DNA of 64,000 bases from Harriotta raleighana (Eukaryota): NCBI GenBank assembly GCA_050575255.1, contig JBNZDD010013681.1:3042543-3106542 (forward strand), written 5' to 3'. The position numbers and the translations under genes are program-made. The notes below the pieces were generated by a model. It searched no databases, had not been told where the DNA came from, and was given only the letters and a program-made list of their open reading frames with translations. Positions 1 to 57,420 of this stretch are shown here, one piece after another. Position 1 is the stretch's first letter. Every line of letters starts with the position of its first letter.

Positions 1-3000
1 CACTGCTAGTTCATTATTGGTATCATCAGTTATGCATTGCTATTGCGTGCTCCTATTTTAGTGTAGGCTTTTTATTGCTGTTTTTATTGCAAAAACTCCA
101 CACCACTGAAAGCTGTTGTCATCTGAGAATATCCCTTGAAACTGTAGATGATTTGGAGAGCATTAGCAAACCTAAGGGTGCACTGTCACGCAAGGCAGTG
201 TTGCCTGGTTCTGCTTAACTTTGGGTTGGTTGCCAAATATCATAACATGGATAGGAAGATTGCTTGAGAGAGATTCATACGATTGGTTATTGCTTTGACT
301 GGTTTAAAAAATAGAGCATATGGAATCTGGCAGTTGTGATGTGTCATCACAAGTCTAGCACTAACCTGGCTGGCATCAGATCCATTGCAGACATCATGAT
401 GATTGAGAGTACAGACAGCTTGAATGTTCCTGCAATGCATGTGCAGTATCCAGTTAGACTAACGATTCCTTTATAGGCACAGTGCTGTGACCAAGAGTAA
501 GCAGTCTGCATTTATATAACCATGTTGCCTCTAAGTGAGAAATTGATTGAAAACAGCAGTAAAGGGATCTACAAAGTTTCAAGAATTGTAAAGAACAAGC
601 TGATTTCTTTTTCTTGTGCTTTGCTGCTACATCCAAAAATACCAAATCTTCTTTTCAAGTCAGGTATTGCATAGTCTTGAGATAATATAGTCTGAGATTT
701 GTTTTTTCTAAAATCTGAGTGCGGCTGAATCAGTCTTTGGGTTATGGTAGTAAATTCATCTTGTCAGCTAGCTTTTGCTGTTTAACTGATTTACAAGTTG
801 CACTTTTGAAGAGATGACAGAAATTGTACAATAATAATAACAATTATATTTCATACAGTGCCTTTCCTGTCACAAAGATGTTTCATAGTGCTTCACAGGT
901 TATACTGTAATTTTGTAGGGGGATGTGACAAACAGCCATGAAGTGAATGACCATTAAATAAGGAGAAAAACTGGTCTAGAGTAGTGTCTGTTACAGAAAC
1001 ACAAATGTTAAGATACATGTGGTATCTTAATAAGGTTTTCAAAAATGTGAGTTAATTCAGTTAATTTGTTATAAATATGATTTCTTACTGAAAAGCATCC
1101 TACAACAGAAATTTTCATTTATATAGCTTGTTTCATGTCAGAGTGCATCTCAAGGCTCAATGATCATTGCAACAGCTCTGTCTCCCCACTGTTATTATTG
1201 ACACAGTTGAAATTATTCTGAAAGCATTCATTTATGCTAGATTTCCATAACATCTTTTTAAATGCATATACTATTAATCAATGATATGGTATATCAAATT
1301 CAAGGATTATTATTGTTGTATACAAGTGTAATTTTGTTATTGTCACATATTATTGTTTGCCAATTTTCTGTAATATAGATGCTTTACTCATTGTAAAATA
1401 GAGATTTGACCATTATCATTTTATCAGGATACTACCGTTAATTTTAAAGCACAAGAGAACCACTAGATGCATTTACTTCAATCTTTATTATATTTAAGTA
1501 AAATCCTGCCTTATCTTTTGGCCTTCAATTAATCTATTGTACGAAAGTGGAAATCTCCTCTGGTAGGTATTGTTTATGCAGGGTAATACAGATCTGTCAG
1601 GAAACTGCTACCTCAACTGACATCTGTTAACTCAGCACAGATTGGAATTGAACATGCAACCTTCTGGGCTATGTGGCTTAGTGCTACACCATGTATTGCA
1701 TTTACTATGTAGCCCATTGTCCGGGGGGGCTTGAAATTTTCTCGTGCAATTTGATTTTAAACTGTTTTTTCTGTGCCGTTCTAGCATTATCCATGGGATA
1801 GTAATACAATACACCGTGACAGAGTTACAGTACACGACAATGCCAAACTCCCAAAACCAAACTCAACACTGAGGAATACAACCAAATAACAAATATTGTA
1901 ATTTCTGTTCAAAAGCACCTTTATTGAAGTATAAAACAGTAAAAATCTGGTTACGAAAATAATCATACAATACAAATTAAAGATGTCCATGTTTGCTGTC
2001 ATTCATGGAATATATTCAATTAATAATTGAACTGTTGGTAATTTTCCTTTTAATTATGAAAGTTTAATATTGTGAGTGTCTGCCCTTATATAGGAATGAT
2101 TGCGAGTAATCTGATTGAGGAAGTTGGTACAAGGCTATTTAGTGTGAGGAAAGCAAAGTAGTTTGTTTTTTATTCTATTGTATTTTTAATATGTACACCT
2201 GCTTCCCACCAATGTGGGTTTTTTCTGCTTGCGAGAGTTAGTGCAAGTAGTCGAGAATGATTATCATTAGCTTCTTTGGACAGTTAAGAGTCCACTCTTA
2301 ATGATGCACAAAGACGTCCATTCTGTAGGATTAGCGCACCTAGATTTCCAGAAGGCATTGTGTGATTAACTATTGCGCTTGGATCACTGCTAAGTAGATT
2401 GAGAGAATCTAATTAGTGGCCACTATACATTATTTTTAACTCTGTTTTAGACCTATTTAGCATTTTAAAGTATGTTTACAATAACTTTATTGCAGTGGAA
2501 CCAGTTCTCTTTGGGTTTTAAAGAGATTACAAGAGCATTTATTAAGACAGTTGTTAATTGAAACTTGAAAATTAGATATTCTGTTTTATTGGAAAGGTCT
2601 GCGTAGTTGTATGTGGTTATGTGTCATGCACTGTAAAACAATAAACTGATTACGCATATATACTCTTCGCACGCGTTGTTAGAAGGAAGTTGTCCAGAAT
2701 ACGGTACAGACCAAAAAAGAAGAGGTACTGAGCAATGTACGGCAAAAAAAGCGGAAATAGGATATCCTCACATTGTTACAGTAGTTAATGGCACCTTCTA
2801 AAGAGTCTGTATCTATGGAAATTATTTTATACTTGCTACATATCTTGGGCAATAATTGTCTGTGTATGACTGATTTGGGTTTCTTGTTCACTTATAATCG
2901 TTTTATTTAACATAGTGGCTTATCATGACAACGTCTTAATACTTATCTGTAAAATTTAGTAACTGTAAAGTGCAGTAACTACTTTGTAAGCAAATATTTT

Positions 3001-3079
3001 GTAAATTATATAGGCAATTATAAATTTTAATCATATAAGCATATAAGAAATTGTGCAAAAGTCACAAGGCTGTTAATGC

Positions 3080-4290
3080 TCAATCAAATGAGGAAGAACA
3101 TTGTCTTGGTTGTGTTCAAATATACCTAGACTTTTGCAGTTTGTTGAAAGATACTTTGATCCATATCTTCCTGATAGGACTTGAGAAATTAAATTCTGTA
3201 TCTTAATCAAAGTAAATATCGACTTTTTGATCCGCTGGATATTTTAAAATATGTGGACACCCATCAACATGCTTAAGAATATCAAAACCAAACTGAAATT
3301 CCATGCATTCCACCTACATATGGAAATTCCAGAGGTAAATTATAGGAATGGAATGCGTACTCTCTCCCTGGAACGACACATCCTGTTTACCTAATTCTGG
3401 AAAGCATTAGGCGCAGGTTGGCAAGAACCAGGCTTGGGGACACTAGAGTATGAGTTGCGGTATTGCTAGAATCTAAAGCCGCATAACTTGCCATTGAGAG
3501 CACTACCTGACAAGCTTTCTCACTGCTTGTTCAGCTAGGAACACCCTACCTGTTAGGGCTTTGGCTTTCAAGGTTAACCAGAGCTGAGTGGGGAGATACC
3601 CTGCCCCCACTGACTGGCTTGCCCTTTCAAGTTCTGCAGCTGAGCCAGGCTGACTATGCTGTCTTTCGGGAATGCCTTGTATTGTGGACCTGCTTGACAT
3701 CCGATAAACACGGGTTTGAACCTTCACTAGGTCGATGGCAGGTACCAGGACCTCCCTGCAAGCTTCCTGGTGGATAACACAGCTCAGCATAATTGTGTGG
3801 GAGTATTTCCACCATCTTCCTAGCCGCCACTTGGGCACACATAGCTTCCCATTGTGCAATGGTTCCACTAATTGCAGAGTTTAAGCGGCAGCTGCTTGCC
3901 TTCTGCAAGGTTTCTCTCAATCAAATGATCAGTCCCACTTGTTGATTCCTATTGGAACTGGGGTTGTGGTAGACACCAACATTTGCCGGAAGATTGTCCT
4001 AAAGGACTGAGAAGGTGCACTTTGATCATGTTCGTCCCTCTTCAAGGACAGCAGGTCATTGCAGGTCAGGATTGCGGCATATAGGAATTGTGTGCAAACA
4101 ATTAAGCAGCTGGTACTGAGTAAGCCTGGTATATGAGATTGACTTGGAACTTGAATATAATGGTGGCTGTCATGTCACAAGCTGTCTGTCCTATAAAGAT
4201 CCTCCCACCATGCTGAAGGCAGATTTCCGACAGATAGCTGTTGTGACAGCTGCAAGAAAGCATTACCTGGAGTCTTGAGTTCATGAACAA
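3080..4290 (+). mobile_element. Unclassified degenerate coding repeat, copy A
   Basis: Broken reading frame (IPCIPPTYGN...ESIRRRLAR...TGLPFQVL...FLVDNTAQH) homologous to 47770-48700(-) and 56460-57420(+); boundaries approximate. Confidence 0.7.
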
Positions 4291-4299
4291 ACATTCATA

Positions 4300-4441
4300 C
4301 ATCCAAAAACGCAAAATACTGCAAATGCTGGGAATCTGAAACAAAAACAGAAGTCGTTGGGAACACTCAGCAGGTCAGGCAGCATCTATGGATAAAATAA
4401 AAGTGAGTCAACGTTTCGGGTCCATGATCCTTCGTCAGAAC
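4300..4441 (-). mobile_element. Penelope-like element terminal fragment with hammerhead ribozyme-like core
   Basis: Minus strand CTGACGA-A-GGATC-ATG-GACCC-GAAA-CGTT; related copies near 11915-12000, 38718-38812 and 61010-61080. Confidence 0.7.
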
Positions 4442-4554
4442 AGTCGTGGACCCAAAATATGCATACATTCAAAAAAGAGTGGTAGAAATCTACAATTCTC
4501 TTCTCCCAAAAGGCTGAGGACGCTAGATCTATCCATGCCCGCGAAGAGTGAGGT

Positions 4555-4815
4555 TAATAATAATCATGCTTGCATTTGATATAGCACTTTTTATATCTTC
4601 TAGACATTGCAAAGTGTTTCACAGAATATACCTTACTGTAAAGTGAATTGACTGTATATTTTGTGGGCGAAACTCGGCATCTGATTGCGCATAGCAGTGT
4701 CCCACAAACATTCATGGATTGAGTGACCAAATTATTATTGTTTTTTGGAGTGGGGGGTGGGGGATTATTATTAGGCTTGTTGAGTAGGAAAACTTGCCCA
4801 AGATTTCGCCCTGCA
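4555..4815 (-). mobile_element. tRNA-derived SINE, 5'-truncated
   Basis: Same body and (ATT)n tail as full-length copies at 20327, 42158, 52429 and 61553. Confidence 0.85.
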
Positions 4816-5174
4816 AAATGATGAGGGAAAAGTGATATGTAAATCAATGGAAACTAATGCAGAAATTAAATCTGTAATCAGTAAAGATTATTTACAAGAT
4901 AATACAATGTGCAACCATTAATCCCAAAATACCAGATAAATAAATGAATCAGTAAACTATAAAATAAAAATCTCAAATTCACAGTAAATAAAAAATTGAA
5001 CTGACACTACAAATTGCCCTTCTAGTCAGCCATAGTTATAGTTATGAAATGCACAAAATTTAACCCACATTTCCTTCAAGGTGAACTCATTCATGTGAAC
5101 ATTGGTGGATCACTCAGTTTGATTTCTGGTGTGCATATGGCCCCAAAAGAAATCTGACGTTAATCTTCCAGGAA

Positions 5175-5467
5175 CAATAATAATCCTTACATTTGACATT
5201 GTGCTTTTCTTGTCTTCTAGACTCAAAGAATATACTCTAAAGTGAATTGATTTTATACGTGGGCGAAACACAGCAGCCAATTGCGCACAGTAGTGTACAA
5301 CAAGCAGTCGTGGATTGAAATGTCCAATGTTTTTGTTATTGGTTTTTTTGAGGGATTATTATCAGGCATGTGGAGTAAAGAAACTTTCCCAAGGTTTCAC
5401 CCTGCCTGGAATCGAACCCACTTTTCTTGCTTCAAGGTGTTAGTTACCACTGAACTACAGGACTCCT
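5175..5467 (-). mobile_element. tRNA-derived SINE
   Basis: Family body plus B-box-like GGTTCGATTCC on the minus strand. Confidence 0.85.
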
Positions 5468-8400
5468 CAGGTTGATAGATTTTCGGTAGGTCAGGGTATG
5501 AAGGGATGTTGGGAGAAAGCAAGAAATTGGAATTGGAAGAATTAGTTGATGTACAGATCAGCATAGTGGAACAGTCTGGAAGGGCAAAATGGCCTACTCC
5601 TCCTGTTCCTACATTGGAATAATCTGAATTCTTCCAAATTTTATGAGTGTCAGCTAGAAAATAAATATTTTAGATTTGAACCTTCATTGCCATGGGTTTT
5701 CATGAAACCAAGAAAACCATAACTTTTATTCTTCACAATATATAACTTCACAAAGCATAAATTTGAAAGAAGAAGTGGATTTGTTTTCAATCCTGGTGTG
5801 ACCCATTCCTGCATGCAATAGGTTAAATATTTATTTTAGTTTGATTGCTTTCATATTGTGATTTGGAACTACAGTATTAGTTTTGTTTACAATTTTGTAT
5901 AAGCACTATAGGTAAAATAGGGAATTGTTTTAAGCAATTTAATTCTAAAATACAGTGTAACTTTGATCTGTCTTCTAATAATTCATTATGACTTTTCATG
6001 AACATTTACAGTGTACTTCCACTTTTCATTTGAAATTATGCAAAAATAACATTCTTTTGCCGCAACGTGCAACAGTTAAAGGGATTAAACCGAGCATTAC
6101 ACACATCATTAATTTTGCTTTTTTAGTTGAGGGCATGTGGATAATCAAGGTTTTGTTGTATTTATTGACCTAAATGTTCTTTCTTTCACACTTTCATCTT
6201 GTGACTGTGCATGTGTTTTTACTGTCAATATTTCTGTCGCCTTCGGGTTAAAATTTAAGTAATGCAATGCAGGTTAAAATCAGAAATATTATTCCTTTCT
6301 AGGATAACAGATAGTCATATATGGATATTTAATGCCCAAATAAATACAGATTTATTTGAAAACCACAGTTTGCAGTTTATATACTGTACCTTTGCTGTGC
6401 AAGCTAAGCTTTGGTCGTATTAAAATCTAAAGTTAAAATATTAATCTACACAAAGTTACATTTAGTGGTAGAGATAAGTAAGTGTCATTTTCGGAAAGAA
6501 TAAATTGAGAGATTACAAAATTACTGTTTAACTGAAAGTTTGTGAGTGGAAAAATCAGTGCTTCCAAAGAATAGTTTACTTTCAGCAACTAGAGTTTTGT
6601 GACGAGCTTCTTGGCAGCTTGGAGTGAAAGTTCAAAATTGAAGCAGCAAATGTTGCATTTACTAAAAGGAAATACTACTTTGGAAAATATGTAAGACGCA
6701 GTCTTTCATCTGTCTCCAACCCCTTTGCCCCCCATGTTAGAAATGGGTTGTATTTATCTGTAGAAGTACAGTAACTGTACTGTTTGAATCTCTATTTAGT
6801 GACGGATTCTGCACTCATTAATATACAAAGCACTGCCATTTGCTGGTATGAATTACTTGATTGTTAGGAAAAGGTAATTACAGATCAAGCTAGCAACCAA
6901 ATTATGTCAAATGATTCGGAATTTATTTTACTATCAAACATTCAAAAGTTGTAATGAAACATTTACATCTATAGTTAGTGAATGCAGTTTTGGAGGGTGA
7001 GTAAGGAGAATGTAGTGCCTTCGGCTTTATAACGTCTAAAGACACGAGGGTAAAATAATCATTGATGAACAAATTAACAGGCAATACCAAGTAAAATTAT
7101 ATCAAAATGCAAATTTCTTTTTATGTTTTCACTCTTTGGAAAAAGGATCCATGTCCTACAAAGTAATTTATATAGAAAAGGTGCATGTGGTAAAGAATGT
7201 GCTATGCAACCATGGCTGTTCCACTGCTTACAATAAAGCAGTATTCCGAAAGGGCAGTACCATGATTTGTGCTATTCCAGTAAGTTCCAGTTCCACCTCA
7301 GTTCAGTTTCCTGTTGCAGTTTCTGTTTAAACATGAATAAGGCTCCAGATAGTTTATGAACTGTTCTGCCTGCTGCACTTAATATAGCCCTACATTTACT
7401 TGCACAAGAGATGAGATACAGTAGCAGTGCCCTCATCTGGTAAGCATGATAACTACTGTACAGTAAACTTTACATTAGTCATATCAGTTGGAACCACACA
7501 TTTAATATGACTTGTGCAAAGTATGAGTTATGTCAAACTTGCATAGAATATAACTCTTGAATAGGACTGTACAATTTATACAGATCAGACTTACAATGTT
7601 TACTGTATAACAGTATATTAACGGGCATTGAAATGTACTAAAGCCATGGTTGCAGTGCATTGCTTGGATTTAAATCTAAAAGGAAGAACAGAGCAGGGAA
7701 GATGTTTATCTGTGTATGTACACTTATTTTTCCAGTTTGGAGAAATAAATTAATTTCAAATGTAATTTCCAGATTTGAAACAATGTAATTAATGGCCATT
7801 TTTAAAAAGTTTTTTGGGGGGAGGAACATAAAAATAACACTTCCATAGTTTGCCAACCAGTACCTCTTCTACATTTGGACTCTATTGGTAGCCCCCTTTT
7901 TAAAATTAGTTTCTGGACACTTTTCAACACATACTCCACCTAGGTGAGCCTAGACTGTGTATCAGCAGGTTGTTTGTCTGTGGGAGAGAGAGCATTGTAG
8001 CTGACCACAATTTTTGTCAAGGCAGGATGTCCATGAAAGTGCTCTTTCCATCAGAACATTGTTGTCTAAAATTCTACCCTGGCTGATTGACATTGTTAAC
8101 TCCCATTTAGTGCAGTCAAGATTGTTGCATTTGATTGCAATGGAGTGCCCTCTTGTGTTGATGCACGCATGTACACTCGTTAAACCTATTTGATAGATAC
8201 TATACACCTTTATATATATATATATATATATATATTCTGATGCTAGACCTTCAGATCGTATTTGCAAATGCATAAACTGCTTATCGCGCTCAACTTCCAG
8301 CAACATCTTTCATATTGGGAGGACGTATCAAGCAGGAGAGCTCCTGTCTTGTTCAACTTAATACGATTGTACTGACCAAACCTTGTACTTCTTTTCAACA

Positions 8401-20326: not shown

Positions 20327-20657
20327 TATAATAATAATAATAATAATCCTTGCATTTGATATAGCGCTTTTCACATCTTATCAACGTCCCAAAGCACTTC
20401 ACAGACTATACTGTAAAGTGAATTGACTGTATATTTGTGGGCGAAACGCGGCAGCCAATTGCGTACAGCAATGTCGCACAAACAGTCATAGATTGAAATG
20501 ACCAATTTTATTATTGTGGTTTTTTTTGGAGGGATTATTATTAGGCATGTGGAGAAAGGAAACTTTCCCAAGGTTTCGCCCTGATCTCCCTGGATTCGAA
20601 CACAGGTCTCATGCTTGTAAGGCATGTAAGGCGAGTGCTCTAACCACTGAGCCACAG
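20327..20657 (-). mobile_element. Full-length tRNA-derived SINE
   Basis: A box TGGCTCAGTGG, B box GTTCGAATCC, family body, 3' end GTGAAAAGCGCTATATCAAATGCAAGG(ATT)n. Confidence 0.9.
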
Positions 20658-38812: not shown

Positions 38813-40182
38813 TGTATTGAGTTTTATGAAGTAGTGTTTAGTTCAGGATATGTTGGGTTTAATTTTCATGCAATCATACACCATAATTCCTGCAGACTTT
38901 CATAATTAAAGACAAGATAATTTTACAGATCTATAGTTGCAATACATATATACACTCCTATGAGGATAGTTGATGCAACAATTTGGTAAATGTGCACATT
39001 TGAAACTTAAAACTAAAACCAATCTGAGAACTTACAATTTTTTTAATAAAAATGAAATCACAATTTTCTTTTAAGACAAGTATTTGAACTGGTTCTAACT
39101 GACACAATTTTCAACATTTTATTAAAAGTGTGAATATGAATAAGGTTGTTGCAGACAGATGTGAGTGACTGTATTTATGGTATGTACATCTGCAAGCCTC
39201 CATTTCATATAATGCTCTTGAGTGCTACTGAAGCCCCTGAACTGCTAGTTTTCAAAAGCAAGAAATAGAACTTGCCAGTGGAAATGAAGAGATATGCACA
39301 CAGTGAGTGATATACATGCAGAAAATTATTACTTCTGCACGTTATATAACTATCAAACAATGGTTCAAAACCATTAAGCAAGTAACAACAATCTTGTGAA
39401 CCCCAATAGTTAACTGACAAAATTATTTAGAACAGTGTTAATCTTCAGGTCTTTTTAGAAAATCTTTTACCAACCATATTCATTGATTAGTTTGAATATA
39501 ATTTTTTTGAACAATTCAGACTTCCTATATTTTTAACATAGAAATATCATCTCCTGATTCTTCCTACAGAATGTCAGTTAGGGGTATTCCAGGGATTTGA
39601 GCATTCTAATGTCTAGCACATTAGGGTAATTCATATTCTGTACTGCAAAATTTCTCATTTTAAAATTCAACTGGATCCCTTTACCAGTTTGAGTTGTGAA
39701 GTTTCAGCAGTAGTTTAGAGCTATCCATACCCAGCAAGATAGTAGTGAATCCTAAATATAAGAGCGTACATATTTCTCAATGTGTTGACACTCTGGTCCA
39801 CAGGGGTGGCATTTTCTAGCCATCCTCATCGTCCCAAGCCTCAAGTTTTTCCACATCCGTCTTATGACTAACTCGTTTTGAATGGGGTTGAAAAAGCAAA
39901 AACAGCATTGTAAATAACATTGTAAACTGGGAAAAGTGCCTTTAGATATAAAGTAAATGGTCTCTAGGGAACCCACTCTTCTACACACCAATTTATGTCA
40001 CGCCGACCGAGATCATAGTTCCACCCAAGGGTTTTATGGATCAACATGATATATATACGTTTCTGTGAATTTTACTGAGGTGCTAATTACACTTCTGTTT
40101 CCTTAGTAGCACTCGAGTAGTTGCAGAGATCTTTGCAGGACATCTTATGATGTCCTCGGGAGTCCAAGTTAATTACCAGGCT

Positions 40183-41340
40183 ACAACAATAACTTACATT
40201 TATATAGCGCCCTTCATGCGGGGTAGTTTCCAGGAGCACTTAACAGTGGCAGAGTCCAATCCTGAGCCAAAGGCAGTCGGGAGGTGACCATAAGCACGAT
40301 CAAAGTGGATGGTCTTTAGGTGGGATTTCAAATTTGGGAGTGAGGGGGCAAAGCAGAGGGATTGGGGGAGAGAGTTCCAGAAATTTGAGGCATAGTCACT
40401 GAAAGCATGGTCAATGATGGAGGAGCAATGGGGGCAAGGGATGAACAGAGCCGGCTGAGCAATGGGTGTTGGGAGTGGGGGTTAAGCAAGTCAGAAAGGT
40501 AGGGTGAGGCGAGGAAATGAAGGGATTTGAAAATGAGTGAGGGAACCTTGAAGTTAATCAATTTGGAAATTGGGAGCCAGTGGAGTTGGCAAGGACTGGT
40601 GTGACAGGAGTATGGAGTTTTGTGTGTGTTAGTATCTGGGTGGCGGAGTTCTGAATTAATTGGACTGGTGGAACTGAGGGAGGCATTGGAATAATCCAGC
40701 CGGGAAGTGACAAAGTCTTGGATGAGGATTTCGGCTCCTGTGGGGGTGAGGTACAGACGGGGGCAGGCAATGTAGAAAAATGCAGTCCTGGTCAGGGAAT
40801 GGATGTGGAGACGAAAATAAATCTGTGGATCGAACCTGATGCCCAGATTGCGTACGGGTTCGGTGAGTCTGAGGAAGAGTCTTGAAAGGATGAGTTCGGA
40901 CCCGCAGACAAGAAGACATTGATGGGAGCCAAAGAATATGGCTTCCATCTTGCTGGCATTCAGCTGCAAGAAATTTGGACTCATCCAGGCCTTGATGTCC
41001 CTCAGGCAAGCTGACAGGACATCAGCAGACTGGGAGCTGCAGCTGGAGGAAGAATAGGAAAAGTAGGTTTGGGTGTCATGCATATGCAAGTTGACCCCAT
41101 GTCTACAGATGGCATTGCTGAGAGGCAGCATGTAAACGAGGAAAAGAAGGTGGCCAAAGATGGAGCATTGGGATACTCCACAAGTGAATGGCTGGGGACG
41201 AGAGGAGAAATCGTTGGACATCAATTGTTTCATGAACTCAAATAAGGAGCCTTGGAAAGGAGGCGAGACTGACGGCCTGCAGCGTTTCTGGCCCCACCCC
41301 CCTGGAACTCCATCCTGGGACATATTTGCCTCACCTCCTT
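40183..41340 (-). mobile_element. L2 LINE ORF2 fragment
   Basis: TCGVSQCS, CLRDIKAWMSPNFLQLNASK, FVTSRLDYSNA, LHWLP motifs; tail near 40185. Confidence 0.9.
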
Positions 41341-41376
41341 AAAGGCCTGTCTCGTGAAATTTTTGACTGTGCCTTC

Positions 41377-41945
41377 AACAACAACAATTTGCACTTATAT
41401 AGCACTCTCCACACTGGGAAGCAAATCAGGACATTTGAAAGTGACTCCAAGCCAAGAGTGGGACTTGGAAGGTGGTTGAAAGCACCGTCAAAGAGGAAGG
41501 ATTTCAGATGGTACTTTAAAAGGGGGAGAGAGGAGGCAAGGTGAGGGAGAGCCTTTAAGAGTTTCGGGGCATAGTGGCTGAAAGCACGACCTCCGATGGT
41601 CAGATGGAGGCTGCGAGGGCCGAGCAGGAGGTCAGTGCCAGTTGAGCAGAGGCAGGTTGGGGAGTGGAGAGGTTGGAGAGATGGGGAGGTGCCAGGGAGT
41701 GAGTGCATTTCACCAAGAGTGTGAGGATCCTGATGTCGATCCATTCAGTGATGGGGTTCCAGTGGAGCATGGACTGGAACTGGTGAGATGTGGGTACAGA
41801 GTTTCTCCGAGTCAGTATTCAGTTCTGAATCAGCTGGATCTTTTGAATGGTGGAACTGGGGAGACTGTCGAAGAGTGTGTTGGAGTAATCCAAGCGGGAG
41901 GTGACAAACACATGTATGAGGGTTTTGGCTGCATTTGGTTCAGCC
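41377..41945 (-). mobile_element. L2 LINE 3' fragment
   Basis: IGGRAFSHYAPKL...LKSFLF and (TTG)n tail. Confidence 0.85.
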
Positions 41946-42061
41946 TTATTCCTACCTCTATGCCCTCCAGCCTTCTTGACTCCAACGCTTCACTGTCCAG
42001 CGCCTTGGGCCTTCCCCCCAAGTGAAAGGCATTATATCATTTGTTGTTATTGATGGAGTAA

Positions 42062-42666
42062 GTGACCAATTTTTTAATTTGGTGGATTGTTGGCCAAGAT
42101 AATGGGAGAATCTCTTCTTTTTCAGATAGTGCCATGGGATATTTACTAATATTTCTGGAGACGTGTAGTTCAGTGGTTAGAGCACTTGCCTTACAAGCAA
42201 GAGACCTGCGTTCATTTCCAGGCAGGGTGAAACCTTGGGCAAGTTTCCTTACTCCACACGCCTAACAATAATTGCTCAAAAAACAATAATAAATTGGTCA
42301 TTTTCAATCCACAACTGTTTGTGGGACACTGCTTTGCGCAATTGGCTGCCTTGTTTTGCCTGCATTTGTATAGTCAATTCACTTTACAGTATATTCTGTG
42401 AAGCGCTTTGAGACGTCTAGAAGACATGAAAAGCTCTACATTAAATGCAAGGATTATTATTATTATTATTAATATCCACCCACATAGTCAGTCGGGGTTT
42501 CCGGTCTCAGTTTAACATCTTATTTGATGGACGGCCCCTCCAGCAATACAGCACATCCCCAATCCTACATTGGAATGTCAGCTTAGCCTATGCTTTGCCA
42601 AGTCCGTATGTAAGACTTGAACCACAAACCTCTGAGGCAAGAGTGCTAGCACTGAGCAAAGCTGAC
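42062..42666 (-). mobile_element. Old DeuSINE-like element split by a younger SINE
   Basis: gatagtgccatgggatatttac [insert] ccacccac...cagtttaacatct...gagtgctagcactgagcaaagctgac. Confidence 0.7.
42158..42470 (+). mobile_element. Full-length tRNA-SINE nested in an older DeuSINE-like element
   Basis: A/B-box-like head, family body and (ATT)n tail; flanks continue a DeuSINE-like sequence. Confidence 0.9.
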
Positions 42667-43914
42667 AATCAAATCTATCATGACCTGGTGGAAACAAATC
42701 TATGAAACCAATAGTGGTCTTTGAAAAACGTTGAGTTCATTTAACTATATTAATGAGGAGGTAAAGAGAAGTTGCTGTTCAGCCCATCAAATCTGCCCCG
42801 ATTGCTTCGGCCTGGGGAAATTACTGCTCAGAACCTCTGATTTCCTTATCCCATCTTCAGTTAATTACACAATCACTTATCTAATTCCCTAAATCTCCAT
42901 TATGTAAATGTGACTTTCCCTACATTATAAACACATACCTCTTGCCTCTGCTGTCCAGAACATTATCTTGCACAGCATTGTTCATCTCAGTCTCTGCCTA
43001 TCCCAATATCTCAAATGATATTTAACCAAATCATTATCCAAGGAGATAAAGCTCATTTGTTCAGAATCTGTGCCACTTGGGAGGGGTGTGTGGGGGGGTA
43101 AGAGATGGATTATTTTAACCTCTAGCACCTTTTAAGGCATTCATTTATAAGCCGTGCTCTCCAGATTGTTATGAGATTTGAAATTCCATGCTGTTAATAG
43201 CAAATCTGAAATCAGATCAGTAGTGCAATTTGGGGAGAAGAGAGGGGGGAAAGGGGGTCATAATGAGACTTGGAAATTCCTGTGATCATTTTTTTAGGAT
43301 ATTGTAGCTTTCTCTCTTGTTGTGGATCTCTCCTATGAGAAGGTCATTAACATTCTCGGTACACTGAGAGATTTCATTGAAAGTAGGAAATTACATTATT
43401 TTACCAGTATGTATTTTACCAATATGTGTGGGTGAGCATATTTATATATTTTTTAATGTATATATTACATATGTATACATGGCTCTTTGATACATTTTAG
43501 TCCATGATTCTGTTGGTAGTGGAGATTGCAGAATTTGGGATAAAAATATCTGTGTGAAAAAAAATAAAAGAAATATATAGAAAATGTCTGACGACCAGAG
43601 TTTGGTGATCAAAATCTTTACTTGCAAGTGCCTAAGATTAATAATATTCAGATTTAAGATGTAAATGGCATCCTATCATATCAAAACGTCACAAAGAACT
43701 TCAATGTGTGTGGATTTGTAAGCAAAAGAGACAGTAAATATGCATGCAAATAACACAATTCAAATTTACATTTATTTAGGAGTTTTCAAGTCAGGAGGAT
43801 GTCCCAGCGAAATTAACAATATTGGCTTGGCCAGAACTGGGAGTTGACGGGAATGGGGAGGGGAAAGTTGACTAGAAGAAAGGTCAAAGAGACCTTGCAA
43901 CACAATACAATACA

Positions 43915-44545
43915 ACACAATCCTAAATTACACTTGAATAGCGCCTTTCACATCTGGAGCACATCCCAAGCTATTGAACAGTCAGGAATTTGGACCCGAG
44001 CTGGGGTTCGGTATCGCGGAGGGTAGGAGGGTGACCGAAAGCTCAGTTGAATAGGAGAGCTTTGAGATGCACCTTGAAGGAGGGAAGGGAGGAAGCAAGT
44101 TGAAGAGAATGTGGGATAGAGTTCCATAAGGTGAGGGTAGAAAGTCTGAAGTCCCGACCGCCGATGATGTGACAGACTCCACAGGGGATATGGAGCAGGC
44201 CACAACCTGCTGAGCAGAGGGAGCAGACAGGCTGAAAAGCGGTTAGCAGGCTGCAGAGGAACTTTCCTATGAGAAGGACAGGGAGGGAGGGGGCAAGTCT
44301 GTGGAGGACCTTGAAGATGAGGATGAGAATTCTGGGGAATGGGGAGCCAGTGGAGCCAGGTGAGGATGGGGATGATGGGGTCAAGGAATCTGATGTGCGA
44401 GAGGACACTTAGCTGCAGAGTTCTGGATGATAGTTTGTGGAGGGAAGATTTGAGAAGGCTGACAAGCAGGTAGTTGGCATAGTCGAGCCTAGATGTGATG
44501 AATGTGTGGATGAGGGTTTCAGCAACCTGATGGGTGAGGAGTGAT
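43915..44545 (-). mobile_element. L2 LINE 3' fragment
   Basis: AETLIHTFITSRLDYAN...LHWLP. Confidence 0.9.
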
Positions 44546-44654
44546 TGATCGAGATTAGGAATGAAGTAAGTCAAACTTCAGAAAGGTTCAAATCTTGTCA
44601 GCTAATGTTGAGGCGGGCAGTTGGACAGCTATTAAGTGTACAACCATTTTTTTC

Positions 44655-44930
44655 TTGTTGGTGAGGACACCAGAGAAAATATCCTCTTTTTAAATGGTGC
44701 CATGGGATCTTCAACATTCAGCTGAACTGTCAAATGTGGGATTCCTGTGTAGCATCTCATCCAAAGGATGGCACATTAGACAATGTGTCGCTCCCCCAGC
44801 GAATGTTGATGTGGCAGCGAAGAAGACTGTGAACTAAAAATCCTGACGTGGAACATGAAACGACAACCTTCTGAAGTGAGAAACCCCAACTGATTATTTG
44901 AACTCCCGAGCCCAGAGTTGCTAACGCCCA
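44655..44930 (-). mobile_element. DeuSINE-like fragment
   Basis: gtgccatgggatcttcaacattca...catctcatccaaaggatggcac core. Confidence 0.7.
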
Positions 44931-45687
44931 TTGCATCATTTTTGTTATTATCACAGCTGAAATCAGTTTATGCAAAACAGACCAAGCATCAAATATGGAA
45001 CTTTCCTGGTATATATGGTTCAGTTTTATTCTAGACTATGGGCAGGAAACATTTTTCAATTGAATTGTCCTATCGTATATCATTTATGTAGTCATGGAAT
45101 TTTCAAACCATATTTATGTTACAATTTACAACTACACAAGATATATTAATTGAAAATTGGTCCCAATCATGTGGTCAGCTTAAGTAATGTGAGAGTGTAG
45201 TATTCACTGGCTCCATTTAACAGCAGAAATTTTTTATTGTTGTTATATTGTTACAGAACAAGGAAATCAGGTTTGAAGATATTACATTCTCTATCCAATT
45301 ATCAACACAAGTGTCTTCAGAAAATGCAAAGAAGAGCATTGTAATGATTCAATGTTACAACTGAGTGAGTGATACAAATAGCAATGTCATGCAAGCTTTC
45401 ATCTTAAGGTTCTTAAATTGTGTTGGATAATGGATGATTTGGATAGATTTCTAGGTTTGTGCTATATGGCATTAATAGTTCTGAAGCTTGCCGAATTTTG
45501 TTGATAGATATAAATTTATAGAGACTATGTTGCGGATAGATTTATTATTATTAAGTCTATAACGTTTAGCCAGGGGCAAATGAAAGCTGATGATTTGTGC
45601 GATAATGTAATCATTTTCTTGCATAGCTAAAAATCATATAATGAAGTAGAAACAAAAGGTGCTTTATTCCATTTTTAAAATGCCATT

Positions 45688-46330
45688 ACCAGCACCGCCT
45701 TCCACCATCTCGGTAACATTGCCAGACTCCGCCACTGCCTCACCCCTCAGACTGCCGAAACCCTCACACATGCATTTGTCACATCAAGGCTTGACTACGG
45801 AAACTCCCTCCTCGTCGGCCTTCCCAGCTCTTCCCTTCATGAGCTGCAGATCATCCAAAGCTTTGCAGGTCGTGTCCTCTCAAGCACCAGGCTCCGCAAC
45901 CCCATCATTCCCACCCTCCCCATCGCCCAGAAGTTCGTATTCAAGATCTTTGACCTCACTTTCCAGGCCATCCACAGCTATGCCCTTTCCTATCTTTCCG
46001 ACCTGATGACTCCCTAACAACCTGCCTGTCCACTCCGTTCAGCAGGCTCCAGTCTGCTCCATGTCTCCTGCCCCACCATCAGTGGCTGGGCTTTCAGCCT
46101 CTCTGCTCACACACTCTGGAACTCCATCCCACAGAGCCTTCACCTCGCTTCCTTCAAGGCCGGTCTCAAGAACTTCCTTTTCAATCATGCTTTCTGCTAC
46201 CCTCCTTCCTCTTTCTCTCTCCTCCTCTCTACCCTTCCCCTCCCCTATGCTCAACTCCTGACTGTTCAGCAGCTTGAAATGTCCTTCCAACATGAATGTC
46301 GCTCTATAAATGTAATTTTGTTGTTGTTGC
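45688..46330 (+). mobile_element. L2 LINE 3' fragment
   Basis: ORF2 remnant (AETLTHAFVTSRLDYGNS) and (TTG)n tail. Confidence 0.9.
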
Positions 46331-46499
46331 TTGTTGTAAAAGCATATGTGGGATAATTGACCAGGTGTACCACTTAGCTTGCTATCTTTCCATTGAGAAT
46401 CACACAAATGTTACCTCGGGATGTGTAAAAAGGCATTTGGGAAGAATGATTGTAATCAGGATCTGGGGGTTGTGGTAAACACCAAATTTTCTTGGACAC

Positions 46500-46790
46500 T
46501 GTTCTTCAGTACTGCATTGAAAAAGTGAGCAGGAGTTTCAGCACAGGTTCACCAGAATATTACCGGGCCTAAAAGGGTTAAATTACAAGGAAAGGCTGGA
46601 TAAACATGGATTGTATTTCCATGAGTTCAGAAGGTTGAAGGGTGATTTGATTGGTGTATGTAAGATGATAAAGGGATTCAATAGAGTAGATACAGAGAAG
46701 CTATTTCCTTTAGTGGGGAATCCAAAACAAGGGGGCAGAACAGACTCAAACAGCTGAATGGCCCACTCGTGTTCCCATGTTCCTATCACT
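46500..46790 (+). mobile_element. CR1 LINE 3' fragment
   Basis: FTRILPGLKGLNYKERLDKHGL..EFRRLKGDLIGVYKMIKG. Confidence 0.85.
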
Positions 46791-46954
46791 TTCATAGATC
46801 TGAGCTTCTGAGCATGGAGTGGAGGCCAGATTCCTTCAGCCCATTTGCAAAGTCCACATGCAATCTGTCAGGTGGATTTATGGGAGAAAGAGGATGTAGC
46901 TATAGGGAGAAAGAGGATGTAACTATAGGGAGGAAGGCCTATTGCTAACCTATC

Positions 46955-47758
46955 AACAACAAAATTACACATGTATAGTGCCTTTCTCGTCAGGAGGATG
47001 TCCCAAACTCGCTGAACAATCAGGGACCCAAGCAGGAGGGAGGGTCGGGGATAGAGGGAGAGGGAAGGAGAGGGGGAAGAGTTAGGTGGGGGGGAGCCGA
47101 AGGCGCGTTCAAAGAAGAAGGTCTTGAGACCGGCCTTGAAGGAGGAAAGGGAGGAAGCAAGGCGGAGGGACTGCTGGATGGAGTTCCAGAGTATGGGCGC
47201 AGAGAGGCTGAAAACCCGACCACCGATGGTTGGGCAGTTAGGGCGGTGGATCTGGAGCAGGCCTGAGTCTGCTGAACGGAGAGTGCGGGCAGGCTGATAG
47301 GGAGACAGCAAGTCAGAGAGATAGGATCTTGAATTCAATCCTCTGGGGGATGGGGAGCCAGTGGAGATGGGCGAGTGTGGGAGTGATGTGGACATGGAGC
47401 CTGGTGCAGGAGAGTACACGAGCTGCAGAATTCTGAATGATCTGCAGTCTGTGAAGGGAGGAGTTGGGAAGGCCGACGAGGAGAGAGTTCCCGTAGTCAA
47501 GCCTGGAGGTGATAAAGGTGTGAATCAGGGTTTCGGTGGCATTGGGGGTGAGGTAGTGGCGGAGTCTGGCAATATTACGGAGTTGGTGGAAAGTGATACC
47601 AGTTAGGGAGCGGATATGAGGGAGGAAGGACAGTTTGGAATCAAACAAGACACCCAGATTCCTGACTGGCTTCGAGAAATGGAGAGAGCAGCCTTGAATG
47701 CTGATGTTGTCAGCACCCGAGGTGCGGAGGCACTGACGCGAGCCAATCAGGAGGGCCT
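46955..47758 (-). mobile_element. Relatively well-preserved L2 LINE 3' fragment
   Basis: VRNLGVLFDSKLSF...ETLIHTFITSRLDYGNSLL...LHWLPIPQRIEFKIL; tail at ~46955. Confidence 0.92.
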
Positions 47759-47769
47759 GATCACTCAGC

Positions 47770-48700
47770 AACCTGGAGACAAAGTCGGTTGCATGGCAGA
47801 CACATTTATTTGCCAAACCGTGAACTGGATTAATCAATTGGTTTGCTTGATAAACCTGTTGCACCACATTGGTCTCGGATCTCTGGAACTGCCATGCACA
47901 ACTAGTCCAGCACAGACCTCTCACCATGTTAAAGGCAAATGTCCCTTGAATAACTGATCTGGAAACTCTGAGGCCTATGATGAGCTGCTGGTAGGTATTA
48001 CTTGGAGTTAAGGTATATATACTCAGGACTTGGAATCCACCTCGATTGATATACAAAGAGTTAGTCAGGTGCTGCTGAAGCTCTGTATATTCAACATGGG
48101 TCTATTGCTCAATGGGTAGGGATGTGGGTCCTAAATGTGGGCATTAGGATGTTTGCAATGAATTCATGCATCTTGTGCTGAGTTGTGTTGTTCACCAGGA
48201 AAGTTCTGCTATCTGTCTGTTGAAGGCTCTAACCACTCTGCTCAATTGTCAAATGGCTAAATGGAGACTATCCCGAATGGGGGACAACAGGGGGGTCTCC
48301 TAGGAGCTGCGCATGCTCTCAGGTGATGTGCTCGGTAATGGAAAGTCAAAATTGAATCACCCTCTGGAACAATCTTGGTTATCTTATTCCTGAGCCAAGC
48401 AAGTCCACGGTCCTCCAAGACACTGTTGATTATAGATCAATCAGTCTGGCGCTCCGACAAGACTTGGAAGGGCAGACCAGTCATTAGGAACATAGTTTCG
48501 TCACACTCTGCTCCTATTAACCTGCAAGCCAAAGCCCTAAAAGTTTTGATGAACCTAACAGGACAAGCAGCAGGTCGCTCGTCAGATTGTACTCGGTGCG
48601 TTTTTAGCTGGTGAACCAGCAGTAGTACCCCCAATACACATTCTGGGTCCTCAAACAATGATCCTTGCTCACCTTCTGCATCATGGATTTCTTTAGCTTA
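47770..48700 (-). mobile_element. Unclassified degenerate coding repeat, copy B
   Basis: RALACRLIGAECDETMFLMTGLPFQVL...FLVNNTTQHK...HLGPTSLPIEQ aligns to copy A; abuts an L2 fragment near 47760. Confidence 0.7.
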
Positions 48701-48829: not shown

Positions 48830-48990
48830 AAAAAAATTGTTCACTCAATCCATGGCTGTTTGCAGAACACTGGTGTGCACAATTGGTTGCCGCGAAAGTC
48901 AATTCACTTTCCGGTATATTCTGTGAGGTCCCTTGAGACAACTCGAAGATATGAAAGAGCGCTTTATCAAATGCAAGTAGTATTATTATT
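48830..48990 (+). mobile_element. tRNA-SINE 3' half
   Basis: caattggttgccgcg...gtcaattcacttt...gaaagagcgctttatcaaatgcaag tail. Confidence 0.8.
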
Positions 48991-49481
48991 ACTTTCTGGT
49001 ATCAATTATTCTCTCCAGGGAGAGAATATGTATGCATTCTAAATATAAGGAAATTTCCATGCATAGGTGATTGGCATATGTTAAACTATCAATCTGGTTT
49101 GGATATCAATGATTTCCCATATGAGTAAAAAAAACAGTTGACCGAACAAAAATAGCCTTCCTACTACTGTATATTGTAAATTTGTTATTGTTGTAGGATA
49201 TAATCTTGAGAAGCATTAAAAATTAATTAAAGCTCTGGACCCTTATTATAAAAATGAATGGTCAAATCGATGGACTCCACCATACGAGTCTTTCATTCAT
49301 AATCTCAAAGCCGCTACATTGTATGGAAGACCACAAAGATTATAATATAAAACAGATTAAAGACACAACATACTTGAATGTTGCTTTCCAGTATTTGAAT
49401 CATTTGTCATTTGAAATAAGATTGAATTTTGGCCCATTCTATATCACTCCCCCGCTGTCCAGGAGCCTTTTGTTTTTCTAA

Positions 49482-50710: not shown

Positions 50711-52428
50711 GGTCTACCCCAAGAGACAAGATCTGATGACCAATTGTATTTCTGATGGAGAATTAACCAGTGCTTTGTATCAAAAGGAAAATAAAACATT
50801 ACATTTCATGGGAAACACTGCTACACCTCTAGTCAAGATAAAGAAGAGAGTGGGCCATATAGTTTTTGAGATAAGAAAACAAACATGTATTAATCATGGC
50901 CCATTGTTTACTTCCTTTGAGGAAGCTACCAATCCAATTACACAACTCACTAAATAGACCACATCTTATAACAGAGCAAGATATATTGGTTTATATCGTA
51001 ATATGACATAGATTCAGCCCAATTAATCAGTGCCAGTTTAAACCTCTACACAATTCTCACTCCACGGTTTCCCCATCCCACGGTTTCTCTCCCTGAGATA
51101 CACCTTCCACCCCCAAACCCCCATGTATACATAAACATTTCTCTTAAAACATTGATGCTATTTGCTTCAACCATAGTTTCTAGCTGTGAGTATCACATTC
51201 TCACAACCATTGCATTACAAAGTTCTTCTGAAACTCCCTATCACCTCCAAATCAGGTACCTAACCGTCATTGTCAAGATCTTCGTAATGTCCTCCCAATG
51301 TGAAAGGTACTGTTAGAATATAGATATTATAAGTTATTAGATAACTAGCTATCTTACATTGATGCACTCTAGATTTGTATTCACAAGTCAAAAGGCCTAT
51401 CAATATCAAATCCTTTCATACTCTTAAACATTCGTATGAGATTTTCTCAGTTATCTCAACTCCAGTGAAAACCTATATACTGTATGTACAATCTTTCTTG
51501 AGAGATGTATCCACTCATCCATGGTAGCATTCTTTTAAACCTATGCTGTACACTCGCAAATTATATAATATCTTTTGCTCTGAATTCAGATAGCCACCAA
51601 ATTAACAATTGAAATGGTGCAGCAGTAAGAAATCAGTTTACAGCATTAGACTTCATCCTTTATTGAGTCATTACTGTGCTCCTTGAGCTGGACCACACAA
51701 GTTGTCAGGGGCAGTTAAGGTAGGTGGACAACCCAAACAGCTTGTTCCCCAGATACACTGTGGATAATCTAAGATCCTCTTCCATCTCTGTTAATGTTCC
51801 TCTTCCATCTCTGTTAATGTTCTTGGTTGCCCTTTCAGAGTGCAAAGTGATGAGAAAGGCGAACTATAAATATAAATTGTTGTCGAAGTTGTAGTTAGCT
51901 TTCTAGCAAATAATCCAATTGAGGGCAATGAGATAAAACAGAGAAGCGTGGAATTACTTAATGTTTTTCTTAAAAGTTTGGGACTGGCCAGATGACTTGA
52001 AGTTTTCTTTTCTGGTTCTTACATTTATGTCTGAGAAACCAATATTTCTGAAGTCAAAGGAAAGAGATGCTTTTCTTTAAAAAGAGATGTTAGCTTTCTT
52101 TCGTTGGCCTTGATTTGGCTGATAGGGCTGACAAGCTTCAATGGAACTTTCCATTCTAGAAGTTGGATTCCAGATGACCGTTCAGTTAATTTATGGGGTA
52201 GAATTTTGTCTGGATCTAGATTGCTCTAGTGATGTAACATTTTAGAGAGTCCAGAATTTGACAAATTGTTGAATTCAGTCTAAATATTTAAGTCAGTTTT
52301 GTGTAAATCATATTTTTTTTTACAGAAAACGTGCTTCAGAATTTAGGCTGTAATTAAGAATTCTGGATGCTCTGAAATGCTACAATGGTTCAGCATCCCA
52401 CCAAAGGGATGACACTTGTACATTGTTT

Positions 52429-55387: not shown

Positions 55388-55604
55388 TAGGAAAATAGAT
55401 AAACAATCTTTTTTTTTTAAATGCTCAAATAATACACAATTCAAAAGACACTTAAGGAGAGTTGAAATGAGCATTCTGGTTACATACATGTATGGNTAGG
55501 AAAATAGATAAACAATCTTTTTTTTTTAAATGCTCAAATAATACACTATTCAAAAGACACTTAAGGAGAGTTGAAATGAGGCATTCTGGTTACATACATG
55601 TATG
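55388..55604. other. ~107 bp duplication flanking a single N (probable scaffolding artefact)
   Basis: Near-identical copies at 55388-55494 and 55497-55604 on either side of N at 55496. Confidence 0.8.
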
Positions 55605-56459: not shown

Positions 56460-57420
56460 AGTGAGTATATCAATGATGTCAAACTTGGATTTTAAAATCA
56501 TATGGATTATGAGAGGAAGAGAATACCAATGGATGTTTTTTAAGGGTGAGGTTGTGCAAACCAAACTGAGAATTGCATGCATCTCACCTATACATGGAAA
56601 CTTCTGTGCATTAGAATGGAATCTGCCCTTTCTCCACAGAGAGTATGCTACTCGCTTCATTCCAGAGAGTATAAGGTGCAGATTGGCAAGAGCGAAGGCT
56701 TGGGTACCCTGAGGTGTTAGGGTGTATTAGGGTGCTGCTGGAGATTAACTACCTAAAACAAGGGAGCAAAGTTGTCCCACTTTTTGAGGTCCTGAGAAAA
56801 ATATAGGAAACAGTGTGATAGTGAGGAGGAAACAATGGGGTAGGACAGAAAATGTGGAGCTTTGGTGGAATAATAAAGTTTAAATACATAAACTTTTTTT
56901 GTGACGTGTCATAGAGAAAAATAATAACCCATTTCTTACATGACGGATTCACTGTATTTCTCTTGGTCAATCCCGTCAAGCAAAGAATTAATGAGAAAGT
57001 AGAAAGTATTGGTTATAACTGATGTTCATGAGAAGGGATGCCAGGTGTGAAATTATTCATAATCCTGCACCTTATCTTAGACAATATCACACTATCATGT
57101 CAATCAGAATGAATGAGTTCCACTGACTCTATGAATATCTAGGAAACATCTTTTCCGTGTCAGAGAAGAATCACCAAACAACTGTTCCTTGGAAATATTC
57201 ATTATCTTCAAACTTCCACATTGTCATCTATACACCCAGCAACATGAATCATCTTCACTGAATGGGATCAAGTATAACCCTTGGGTAACAAAACCTGATA
57301 TTATAAACCGGGAATCCCAATCACAAATGCATTCCATTTTGCTGTAATATATTCAATTTTTACCCCTCCAGGTGCAAAATACATTATGCCAGAGCCAGGT
57401 AAAACTGCAGTTTTGTTGAT
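56460..57420 (+). mobile_element. Unclassified degenerate coding repeat, copy C
   Basis: IACISPIHGNF..LEWN...FIPESIRCRLAR aligns to copy A 3286-3450; extent beyond ~56750 is only weakly supported. Confidence 0.6.

What the first reader, a model, noticed from the sequence alone, without database searches (positions are those of the whole stretch)
3080..4290. Unidentified multi-copy, codon-conserved coding element (candidate endogenous virus or unclassified transposon)
Seen in sequence: three dispersed segments are homologous. A 3613-3636 (ACT GGC TTG CCC TTT CAA GTT CTG) and B 48458-48481 minus (ACT GGT CTG CCC TTC CAA GTC TTG) both encode TGLPFQVL, and all five differences are synonymous. A 3400-3426 vs C 56665-56691 gives ESIRRRLAR vs ESIRCRLAR, with four synonymous changes and one CpG-type change. 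A 3764-3790 FLVDNTAQH matches B 48175-48201 FLVNNTTQH. Inference: the source lineages evolved under protein constraint before inserting and decaying, and three copies in 64 kb suggest a high genomic copy number. I recognise no RT, endonuclease, DDE transposase, recombinase or host-gene motif. A viral structural or replication protein, or an unclassified TE ORF, is therefore possible.
Basis: partly seen in the sequence, partly recalled or inferred. Interest (0 to 1): 0.8.

Follow-up and report, generated by a model that had tools for sequence, protein, structure and literature searches.

The report
Old chimaera LINE, read backwards
This stretch is a worn-out piece of a copy-and-paste jumping gene (a LINE retrotransposon) whose protein lies on the strand opposite to the one first read, so it is not a hidden virus; the family is an ordinary kind, but one of its other copies likely supplies a 54-amino-acid exon to the chimaera autotaxin gene.

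Summary
The copies and quoted codons are real, but the reading frame is wrong. Walking through genomic copies gives an AP endonuclease, a non-LTR reverse transcriptase and a C-terminal CCHC knuckle on the opposite strand. The copies' C-terminal profile matches intact RT proteins (hhalign 99.3%, E 4e-20). Copies share one 3' end with a short A-tail and are 5'-truncated: an old, probably extinct LINE family (mean pairwise difference 28%). Copy A is 3224-4305 and 5'-inverted, with twin-priming geometry. RTE-X is the best clade guess, untested against Repbase; the named closest proteins are from fungi, algae and plants. A side result is more interesting: a copy in the ENPP2 (autotaxin) intron is shared with Callorhinchus milii and forms a 162-nt in-frame AG/GT exon. 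Three C. milii protein records contain it, and one contig from a probable RNA run splices it to the next exon. Three look-ups found no earlier scan note on this family.

The parts
3224..3228 (-). Short A tail: 3' end of LINE copy A
   Evidence: A T-run or T-rich stretch precedes the shared end in most of the 30 loci aligned; 31 of 62 copies that reach the 3' end carry a run of 5 or more A, against 4% in random 30-mers
3229..3545 (-).
   Evidence: Profile columns about 1200-1520; no significant third-position signal in any phase; dN/dS 0.70-0.83 in all six frames; motif maps to columns 1319-1345
3546..3697 (-).
   Evidence: Stop shared by 77% of copies at column 1197; third-position excess p=0.012 in this phase; single copy L006 reads through in one frame and matches the relatives' C-terminus, iE 2.8e-4; about 145 columns are deleted in A at 3697/3693
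3693..3924 (-). C-terminal ORF region with the decayed CCHC zinc knuckle (about 3780-3840); start of the non-inverted segment
   Evidence: nhmmer E 2.2e-49 to the family profile; the family's profile for this region matches intact RT ORFs, hhalign 99.3%; start at 3924 from pairwise alignment
3928..4305 (+). Inverted 5' segment of copy A (end of RT, thumb and linker), with an internal deletion at 4100/4101
   Evidence: Opposite orientation to B, L004, L024, L027, L029, L069; its outer end lies 16 nt before the start of the non-inverted segment in copies L087 and L090; nhmmer E 2.3e-36 and 7.4e-49
4310..4454 (.). Unrelated later insertion flanked by a 21-nt direct repeat (4289-4309 / 4455-4475, 86%); not part of the family
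   Evidence: Direct repeat D2; also matches window 38716 and 61011
47760..48675 (+). Copy B, main piece: older and more diverged copy of the same LINE, sense on +
   Evidence: nhmmer E 7e-163, columns 349-1331; colinear with L069 over about 880 nt; mean distance to other copies 0.37
48990..49150 (+). Copy B, 3' end with A-rich tail, split from the main piece by another repeat
   Evidence: nhmmer E 1.1e-11, columns 1339-1523; tail
46447..46913 (+). Two further 5' pieces in line with copy B (46447-46553 and 46787-46913), separated by other repeats
   Evidence: nhmmer E 1.5e-11 and 1.5e-18, columns 25-132 and 203-327
56553..56760 (-). Copy C: 3' UTR fragment only
   Evidence: nhmmer E 5.4e-37, columns 1265-1466
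39681..39859 (-).
   Evidence: nhmmer E 5.5e-9, columns 564-727

Best explanation
Shown: domain order, coding strand, shared 3' end with A-tail, 5' truncation gradient, the inversion and its geometry, constraint among source lineages, and an insertion shared with Callorhinchus milii. Inferred from established LINE biology: the endonuclease nicked the target, RT copied the RNA from its A-tail and usually stopped early, and in copy A the other target strand primed internally (twin priming). The copies then decayed neutrally. The family is probably extinct and most likely belongs to the RTE group (RTE-X-like); that label is not tested.
For: Shared sharp end plus T-run in the 30 loci, with variable other ends; first-look candidates fall from 9011 for the whole stretch to 7-324 for more 5' probes. 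RVT_1 in 10 of 15 RT stretches; best PDB matches are R2 and L1 RTs. Best database relatives are 1250-1450-aa proteins with Pfam EN + RT. EN matches in single copies, best iE 2.3e-14. Single copies link the domains on one strand: L154 EN to RT, L069 RT to C-terminus, and L069 maps onto A in four pieces and onto B colinearly. C-terminal profile vs 27 intact relatives: 99.3%, E 4.2e-20, 197 columns including CCHC; 53 of 53 C-terminal protein hits lie on the element-sense strand. Stop-column test, period-3 test, dN/dS. 17 of 55 relatives end in PxG, like the family's ORF end. Inversion geometry fits the twin-priming description (PMC2912911, passages).
Against: Copies A-D on their own score nothing against Pfam or the relatives' protein profiles; their identity rests on nucleotide homology to better copies. 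The tail alignment A3 vs relatives is not significant by hhalign (E 0.4 and 0.039). The frame link across the G-rich tract near column 935 is length-polymorphic and rests on L006 and the phase test. Single decayed EN frames gave no EN hit in Pfam. No target-site duplication was found for A. No full-length copy was recovered.
Confidence: 0.96

Rival explanations
1. Endogenous viral element, or another unknown gene, coded on the reader's strand.
Against: The frame is closed by shared stops on both sides and repeatedly further on. No match in Pfam (best E 0.22, 1 of 14 members), PHROGs (0 of 14), viral contigs (0 confirmed of 486 pattern hits) or the ESM Atlas (best 0.79). The opposite strand is an EN-RT ORF.
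Confidence: 0.01
2. A LINE as above, but the 110-codon antisense frame over the ORF tail is also a real small protein (like primate L1 ORF0), constrained together with the main ORF.
For: Open frame and equal dN/dS on both strands in the tail; the tail's match to relatives is weak.
Against: A frame sharing third positions is expected to mirror dN/dS, and it does so in the upstream ORF too (0.655 vs 0.613) where it is full of shared stops. No homologue was found.
Confidence: 0.03
3. The inversion in copy A arose after insertion by an ordinary chromosomal micro-inversion, not by twin priming.
For: The copy is old, has two internal deletions, and no target-site duplication could be found. Only 5 of 130 loci show adjacent opposite-strand fragments, and 3 of the 5 do not have twin-priming geometry.
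Against: The inverted piece abuts the non-inverted piece within 3 nt with no flank DNA between, and only 16 nt of element are lost at the break; L011 shows the same geometry.
Confidence: 0.25
4. The ENPP2 'exon' is only a gene-model artefact or a rare mis-splicing product in an intronic LINE copy.
For: Cryptic sites are common in the family at this place (AG in 26, GT in 10, both in 8 of 32 copies). The junction contig is one contig with 25 letters on the short side, in a run only guessed to be RNA. The upstream junction was not shown.
Against: The exon is in frame and free of indels in two species (49 of 54 residues identical), is the least diverged of 42 copies over this stretch, is in three C. 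milii records, and the joint has canonical ends exactly at the predicted sites.
Confidence: 0.3

Closest known systems
RTE-X (RTEX) LINEs, e.g. Ectocarpus RTEX-1_Ec32 and RTEX-2_Ec32 (PMC12477816, passages and supplement rows seen)
   Same: Single EN-RT ORF of similar size in the intact relatives; relatives include Ectocarpus, Pylaiella, Laminaria and Batrachochytrium proteins, organisms where RTE-X is the label given to LINEs. A C-terminal CCHC is present (its being typical of RTEX and absent from RTE is recalled).
   Different: No labelled RTEX sequence could be compared. Ectocarpus RTEX have (C)n ends and C-rich targets, whereas this family has a short A-rich tail. An esterase/zinc-finger ORF1 (recalled for some RTEX) was not looked for beyond the N-terminal extension.
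Unnamed single-ORF EN-RT-CCHC proteins P0131-P0239 and P0009-P0129 (named members from Smittium, Batrachochytrium, Synchytrium, Amphiamblys, Galdieria, Picochlorum, brown algae, Adiantum, Taxus)
   Same: Best matches of the family's RT profile (E down to 3e-69); same thumb, CCHC, LLGG, VxxFL and terminal PxG features.
   Different: The chimaera copies form their own branch (SH-aLRT 93) with no supported sister group in a quick tree of 65 rows. None of the named hits among the best 120 is an animal, but most hits are unnamed.
L1 / Tx1 LINEs
   Same: APE + RT + CCHC, A-tail, 5' truncation and 5' inversion by twin priming (PMC2912911, passages).
   Different: Human L1 ORF2p scores only E 5e-15 against the family's RT profile; 5' inversion is about 30% in young human L1 but at most 2 of 130 loci here.
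CR1-type LINEs of the same genome (L183-L190)
   Same: APE-type LINE RT; they are the best own-genome hits to relative P0139.
   Different: Young, open for 400-990 codons, no CCHC visible at the C-terminus, and score 96-97 bits against 160-251 bits for the non-animal relatives. The CR1 label is from recalled motifs.
Exonised LINE fragments; autotaxin-gamma exon 21 (PMC8073485, passages)
   Same: The LINE-derived 54 residues sit where solved mammalian autotaxin chains are continuous, between residues 587 and 589 of 5m7m; chain 8c3o is 25 residues longer and its first matched stretch also ends here.
   Different: The insert is LINE ORF protein read in its native frame, not the mammalian exon. 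That 8c3o is the gamma isoform and that exon 21 lies at this site is recalled.

Membership tests
Non-LTR retrotransposon (LINE) | Non-LTR-type reverse transcriptase | tested here: met
   RVT_1 in 10 of 15 stretches; R2 and L1 best in PDB
Non-LTR retrotransposon (LINE) | Endonuclease in the same ORF (AP type, 5' of RT) | tested here: met
   Profile of EN-bearing relatives hits L158, L142, L098 and others; L154 carries EN and RT on one strand; Pfam itself missed 9 of 9 decayed frames
Non-LTR retrotransposon (LINE) | Shared 3' end, variable 5' truncation | tested here: met
   candidate counts fall towards the 5' end
Non-LTR retrotransposon (LINE) | A-rich or simple-repeat tail | tested here: met
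   31 of 62 copies with 5 or more A, background 4%
Non-LTR retrotransposon (LINE) | Target-site duplication | tested here: inconclusive
   None found for copy A; not searched for other copies
RTE-X (RTEX) clade | RT groups with curated RTEX references in a tree | not testable with these tools
   No Repbase or Dfam sequences available; the defining paper was not held; tree has no labelled references
RTE-X (RTEX) clade | C-terminal CCHC knuckle after RT (feature recalled) | tested here: met
   invariant C486, C489, H503, C508 in relatives
RTE-X (RTEX) clade | Single EN-RT ORF as in Ectocarpus RTEX | tested here: inconclusive
   Relatives are single ORFs with an 80-230-residue N-terminal extension; in the chimaera copies only weak hits reach into it (L156, L168); no full-length copy
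RTE-X (RTEX) clade | (C)n end and C-rich target as in Ectocarpus RTEX (a family trait there, not known to define the clade) | tested here: not met
   Tails are short and A-rich versus supplement rows
RTE clade proper | No CCHC knuckle after RT (recalled) | tested here: not met
   CCHC present
L1 / Tx1 clade | RT closest to L1 ORF2p | tested here: not met
   L1 ORF2p E 5e-15, below R2 and far below the unnamed relatives; Tx1 references were not available
CR1 / L2 clade | RT closest to CR1-type RT, no CCHC | tested here: not met
   96-97 bits vs 160-251 bits; CCHC present
Endogenous viral element | Homology to a viral protein in an ancestrally open frame | tested here: not met
Processed pseudogene family | Homology to a spliced host gene | tested here: not met
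   The only host-protein hits are C. milii ENPP2 models and one 102-aa uncharacterised model that took the sequence from the LINE

The most novel reading that the evidence does not exclude
This is a LINE lineage not yet recognised in vertebrates, whose nearest kin live in fungi, algae and non-flowering plants and which entered the chimaera ancestor by horizontal transfer, spread to thousands of copies, and left a 54-residue piece of its own protein as a selected alternative exon of autotaxin, at the same site where mammals independently have the brain-type exon 21. The exon part alone I put at about 0.7; the unrecognised-lineage and transfer part at about 0.15-0.2.
Probability: 0.12. Interest if true: 0.65.

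Novelty: new member of a known kind. Interest (0 to 1): 0.3.

Why it matters
The finding itself is ordinary: a dead LINE fragment. It is a clean example of a trap in sequence-only scans, where the antisense frame that shares third codon positions mimics purifying selection. Two leads could matter. First, if the family falls outside the LINE clades known from vertebrates, it adds a lineage to the cartilaginous-fish mobilome and a candidate cross-kingdom transfer. Second, the ENPP2 copy dates the family to before the split from Callorhinchus (modern Holocephali diversified about 167 Ma; PMC5499810, section 13 read) and offers a testable case of LINE ORF protein taken in frame into a signalling enzyme.

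Tried and rejected
Pfam on all six frames of A and B, and on 16 open stretches of copies: nothing useful. My first guesses, Penelope RT and an L1/Tx1 C-terminus, were dropped once RT and EN were reached. An apparent ORF end at profile column 974 was rejected as a one-column profile artefact in a G-rich tract. Intact relative P0009 and protein profiles of relatives do not detect copies A-D directly. Rfam on 2900-5600: no match. No target-site duplication for A. A search of the own genome with relative P0139 returned 36 scored places; the 8 fetched are young CR1-type LINEs, so no intact copy of this family was seen, which is a lower-bound search. Three of the 8 hits were fetched whole and proved to be repeat-driven chance hits or had unrelated domains (P0003, P0007 seen; P0005, P0008 by Pfam); P0004, P0006, P0009, P0010 are real. 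The careful tree did not finish; the quick tree leaves the family's sister group open. The look-up of sequencing runs listed no holder on record as RNA; run X1 holds 0.05 of the words and was laid before use. The upstream junction of the ENPP2 exon was not among the joints shown. Literature: searches gave no description of this family or a definition of RTEX; (10 of 68 and 5 of 5 listed) showed no report of a LINE exon in chimaera autotaxin. These are small searches of open-access text only; Repbase and Dfam were not searchable, so the family may already have a name. Before column statistics, 27 of 234 fragments were dropped as duplicates above 95% identity, and L001 and L031 were left out as repeats of copy A.

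Full report
Observation. The window is repeat-rich vertebrate DNA. The own genome holds the family in large numbers: 9011 first-look candidates, 40 scored. A profile over the 3' 1.5 kb collected 234 fragments, 207 distinct, from 130 loci, with mean pairwise difference 0.277 over 4120 pairs.

Polarity. The 30 loci share one sharp boundary at window 3224-3245, mostly preceded by a T-run, and fray at the other end. On the minus strand this is a 3' end with a short A-tail: 31 of 62 copies that reach it have five or more A, against 4% of random 30-mers. First-look candidates drop to 252, 324, 200, 7, 23 and 23 for probes further 5'.

Domains. I walked 5' through overlapping single copies. RT motifs appear on the sense strand; Pfam RVT_1 is hit weakly in 3 of 4 whole decayed copies and in 10 of 15 frameshift-free stretches, best E 8.4e-12. 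Further 5' lie AP-endonuclease motifs, matched by a profile of EN-bearing relatives (best iE 2.3e-14), though Pfam missed them in 9 of 9 frames. Single copies tie the parts together: L154 has EN and RT, L069 runs from RT to the C-terminus, and L069 aligns to A in four pieces and to B over about 880 nt. The region under the finding, aligned from 12 copies, found an intact RT protein (P0009) and matches 27 such proteins by hhalign at 99.3%, E 4.2e-20, including the CCHC knuckle. All 53 C-terminal protein-profile hits lie on the sense strand. Copies A-D are too decayed to score alone.

Counting columns where at least 40% of copies have a stop, each antisense frame has 14-18, while the sense frame has only two weaker ones (51% and 40%, likely CpG decay) before column 974. 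That apparent end is a profile artefact in a length-variable G-tract: the next phase is open to column 1197, has its own third-position excess (p=0.012), and copy L006 reads through it in one frame with a match to the relatives' C-terminus (iE 2.8e-4). Third positions vary most in the ORF (p=0.0002) and not significantly in the 3' UTR. Pairwise dN/dS is 0.61 and 0.58 in the true frame, 0.655 and 0.58 in the antisense frame that shares its third positions, 0.73-0.98 in the other frames and 0.70-0.83 in the UTR (no transition correction, so neutral is below 1). The 3400-3426 motif maps to the 3' UTR, so its pattern is chance selection.

Anatomy of copy A. The non-inverted 3' segment runs 3924 to 3224 on the minus strand; the segment 3928-4305 is inverted. 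The outer end of the inverted piece lies 16 nt before the start of the other piece in element coordinates, and the two meet within 3 nt. That is the geometry described for twin priming (PMC2912911, passages). One other locus (L011) shows it, among 5 of 130 loci with opposite-strand neighbours. No target-site duplication was found, and a later repeat with its own 21-nt direct repeat sits at 4310-4454, so a later inversion is not excluded.

Relatives and clade. The RT profile's best matches are mostly unnamed 1250-1450-aa EN-RT proteins on 4-5 kb contigs; named ones come from Smittium, Batrachochytrium, Galdieria and Picochlorum, and, through P0009, brown algae, a fern, Taxus, Synchytrium and Amphiamblys. 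They share an N-terminal extension, the CCHC, and often a terminal PxG. They outscore the genome's own young CR1-type LINEs (160-251 vs 96-97 bits) and human L1. Curated Ectocarpus AP-endonuclease LINEs are labelled RTE-X or RTE, all single-ORF (PMC12477816, supplement rows), and Batrachochytrium LINEs include RTE-X (PMC9926174, passages). RTE-X is therefore the best guess, but no labelled reference could be compared and the quick tree gives the chimaera copies no supported sister. The lack of named animal hits is weak evidence, since animal repeats are usually left out of protein sets (general knowledge). RTEX is a clade known from vertebrates (PMC5753468, passages).

Host and age. The own genome's ENPP2 exons are 86-94% identical to those of Callorhinchus milii, so the host is probably another chimaera. 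Copy L033 lies in an ENPP2 intron, and three C. milii ENPP2 records carry the matching 54 residues. The insertion therefore predates the split of the two lineages; modern Holocephali diversified about 167 Ma (PMC5499810, section 13). No intact copy turned up.

The ENPP2 exon. In L182 (3483-3644, minus strand) the LINE, in the same orientation as the gene, gives a 162-nt AG...GT exon, in frame with both neighbours and in the LINE's own reading frame. It is 49 of 54 identical to C. milii and the least diverged of 42 copies over this stretch. In run X1, which splices other ENPP2 exons, one contig joins 3483 to 1723 with canonical ends (depth 40, 25 letters on the short side). The site is the linker before the nuclease-like domain, where mammalian chains are continuous and where, as I recall, the gamma isoform's exon 21 lies (isoform described in PMC8073485, passages). 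That V9K9M5 derives from a transcript is recalled; the genome paper only confirms that transcripts were deposited (PMC3964593, passages). The upstream junction and function are untested.

Verdict. A decayed LINE copy of an old EN-RT-CCHC family, read on the wrong strand by the first stage: new member of a known kind, low interest in itself, lifted a little by the open clade question and the autotaxin exon. Other papers seen as passages only and not decisive: PMC9004415, PMC4350176, PMC3747384. Supplements of other papers were not read and might name this family.

Noticed in passing
L182:3483-3644 (G000:C13728, ENPP2 intron; copy L033): A sense-oriented copy of this LINE forms a 162-nt in-frame exon with AG/GT ends in autotaxin; shared with Callorhinchus milii records and spliced to the next exon in one contig of run X1.
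   Followed up: partly
L182, about 5870-8240: Two ENPP2 exons appear twice with identical matches, 1580 nt apart: a tandem duplication or an assembly artefact.
   Followed up: no
window 4289-4475: A 145-nt repeat with a 21-nt flanking direct repeat inserted at the end of copy A; also at window 38716 and 61011. It resembles a common shark Penelope-type end (recalled).
   Followed up: partly
P0131-P0199; family profile columns ~1180-1199: 17 of 55 cross-kingdom relatives end their ORF in PxG, as the chimaera family does; such a conserved last motif may reflect an overlapping RNA signal near the 3' UTR.
   Followed up: no
P0010 (UniRef A0A4W3IMZ1, Callorhinchus milii): A 102-aa 'uncharacterized protein' is another gene model built partly from this LINE's ORF.
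   Followed up: no
L011:1481-2191, L036, L058, L083: Other copies with adjacent opposite-strand pieces; L011 has twin-priming geometry, the other three do not.
   Followed up: partly
L183-L190: A young CR1-type LINE family with open frames of up to 990 codons and near-identical copies; possibly still active.
   Followed up: no
window 4555-4814, 5173-5466, 20329-20656, 42164-42472, 52428-52737, 61554-61845: A ~300-nt repeat family, 70-82% identical, with many copies in the window; SINE-like (label recalled, not tested).
   Followed up: no
window 40183-47750: Cluster of decayed L2/CR1-type LINE 3' fragments in both orientations, nested into copy B.
   Followed up: no
window 55388-55604: A 108-nt tandem duplication at 98% identity.
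   Followed up: no
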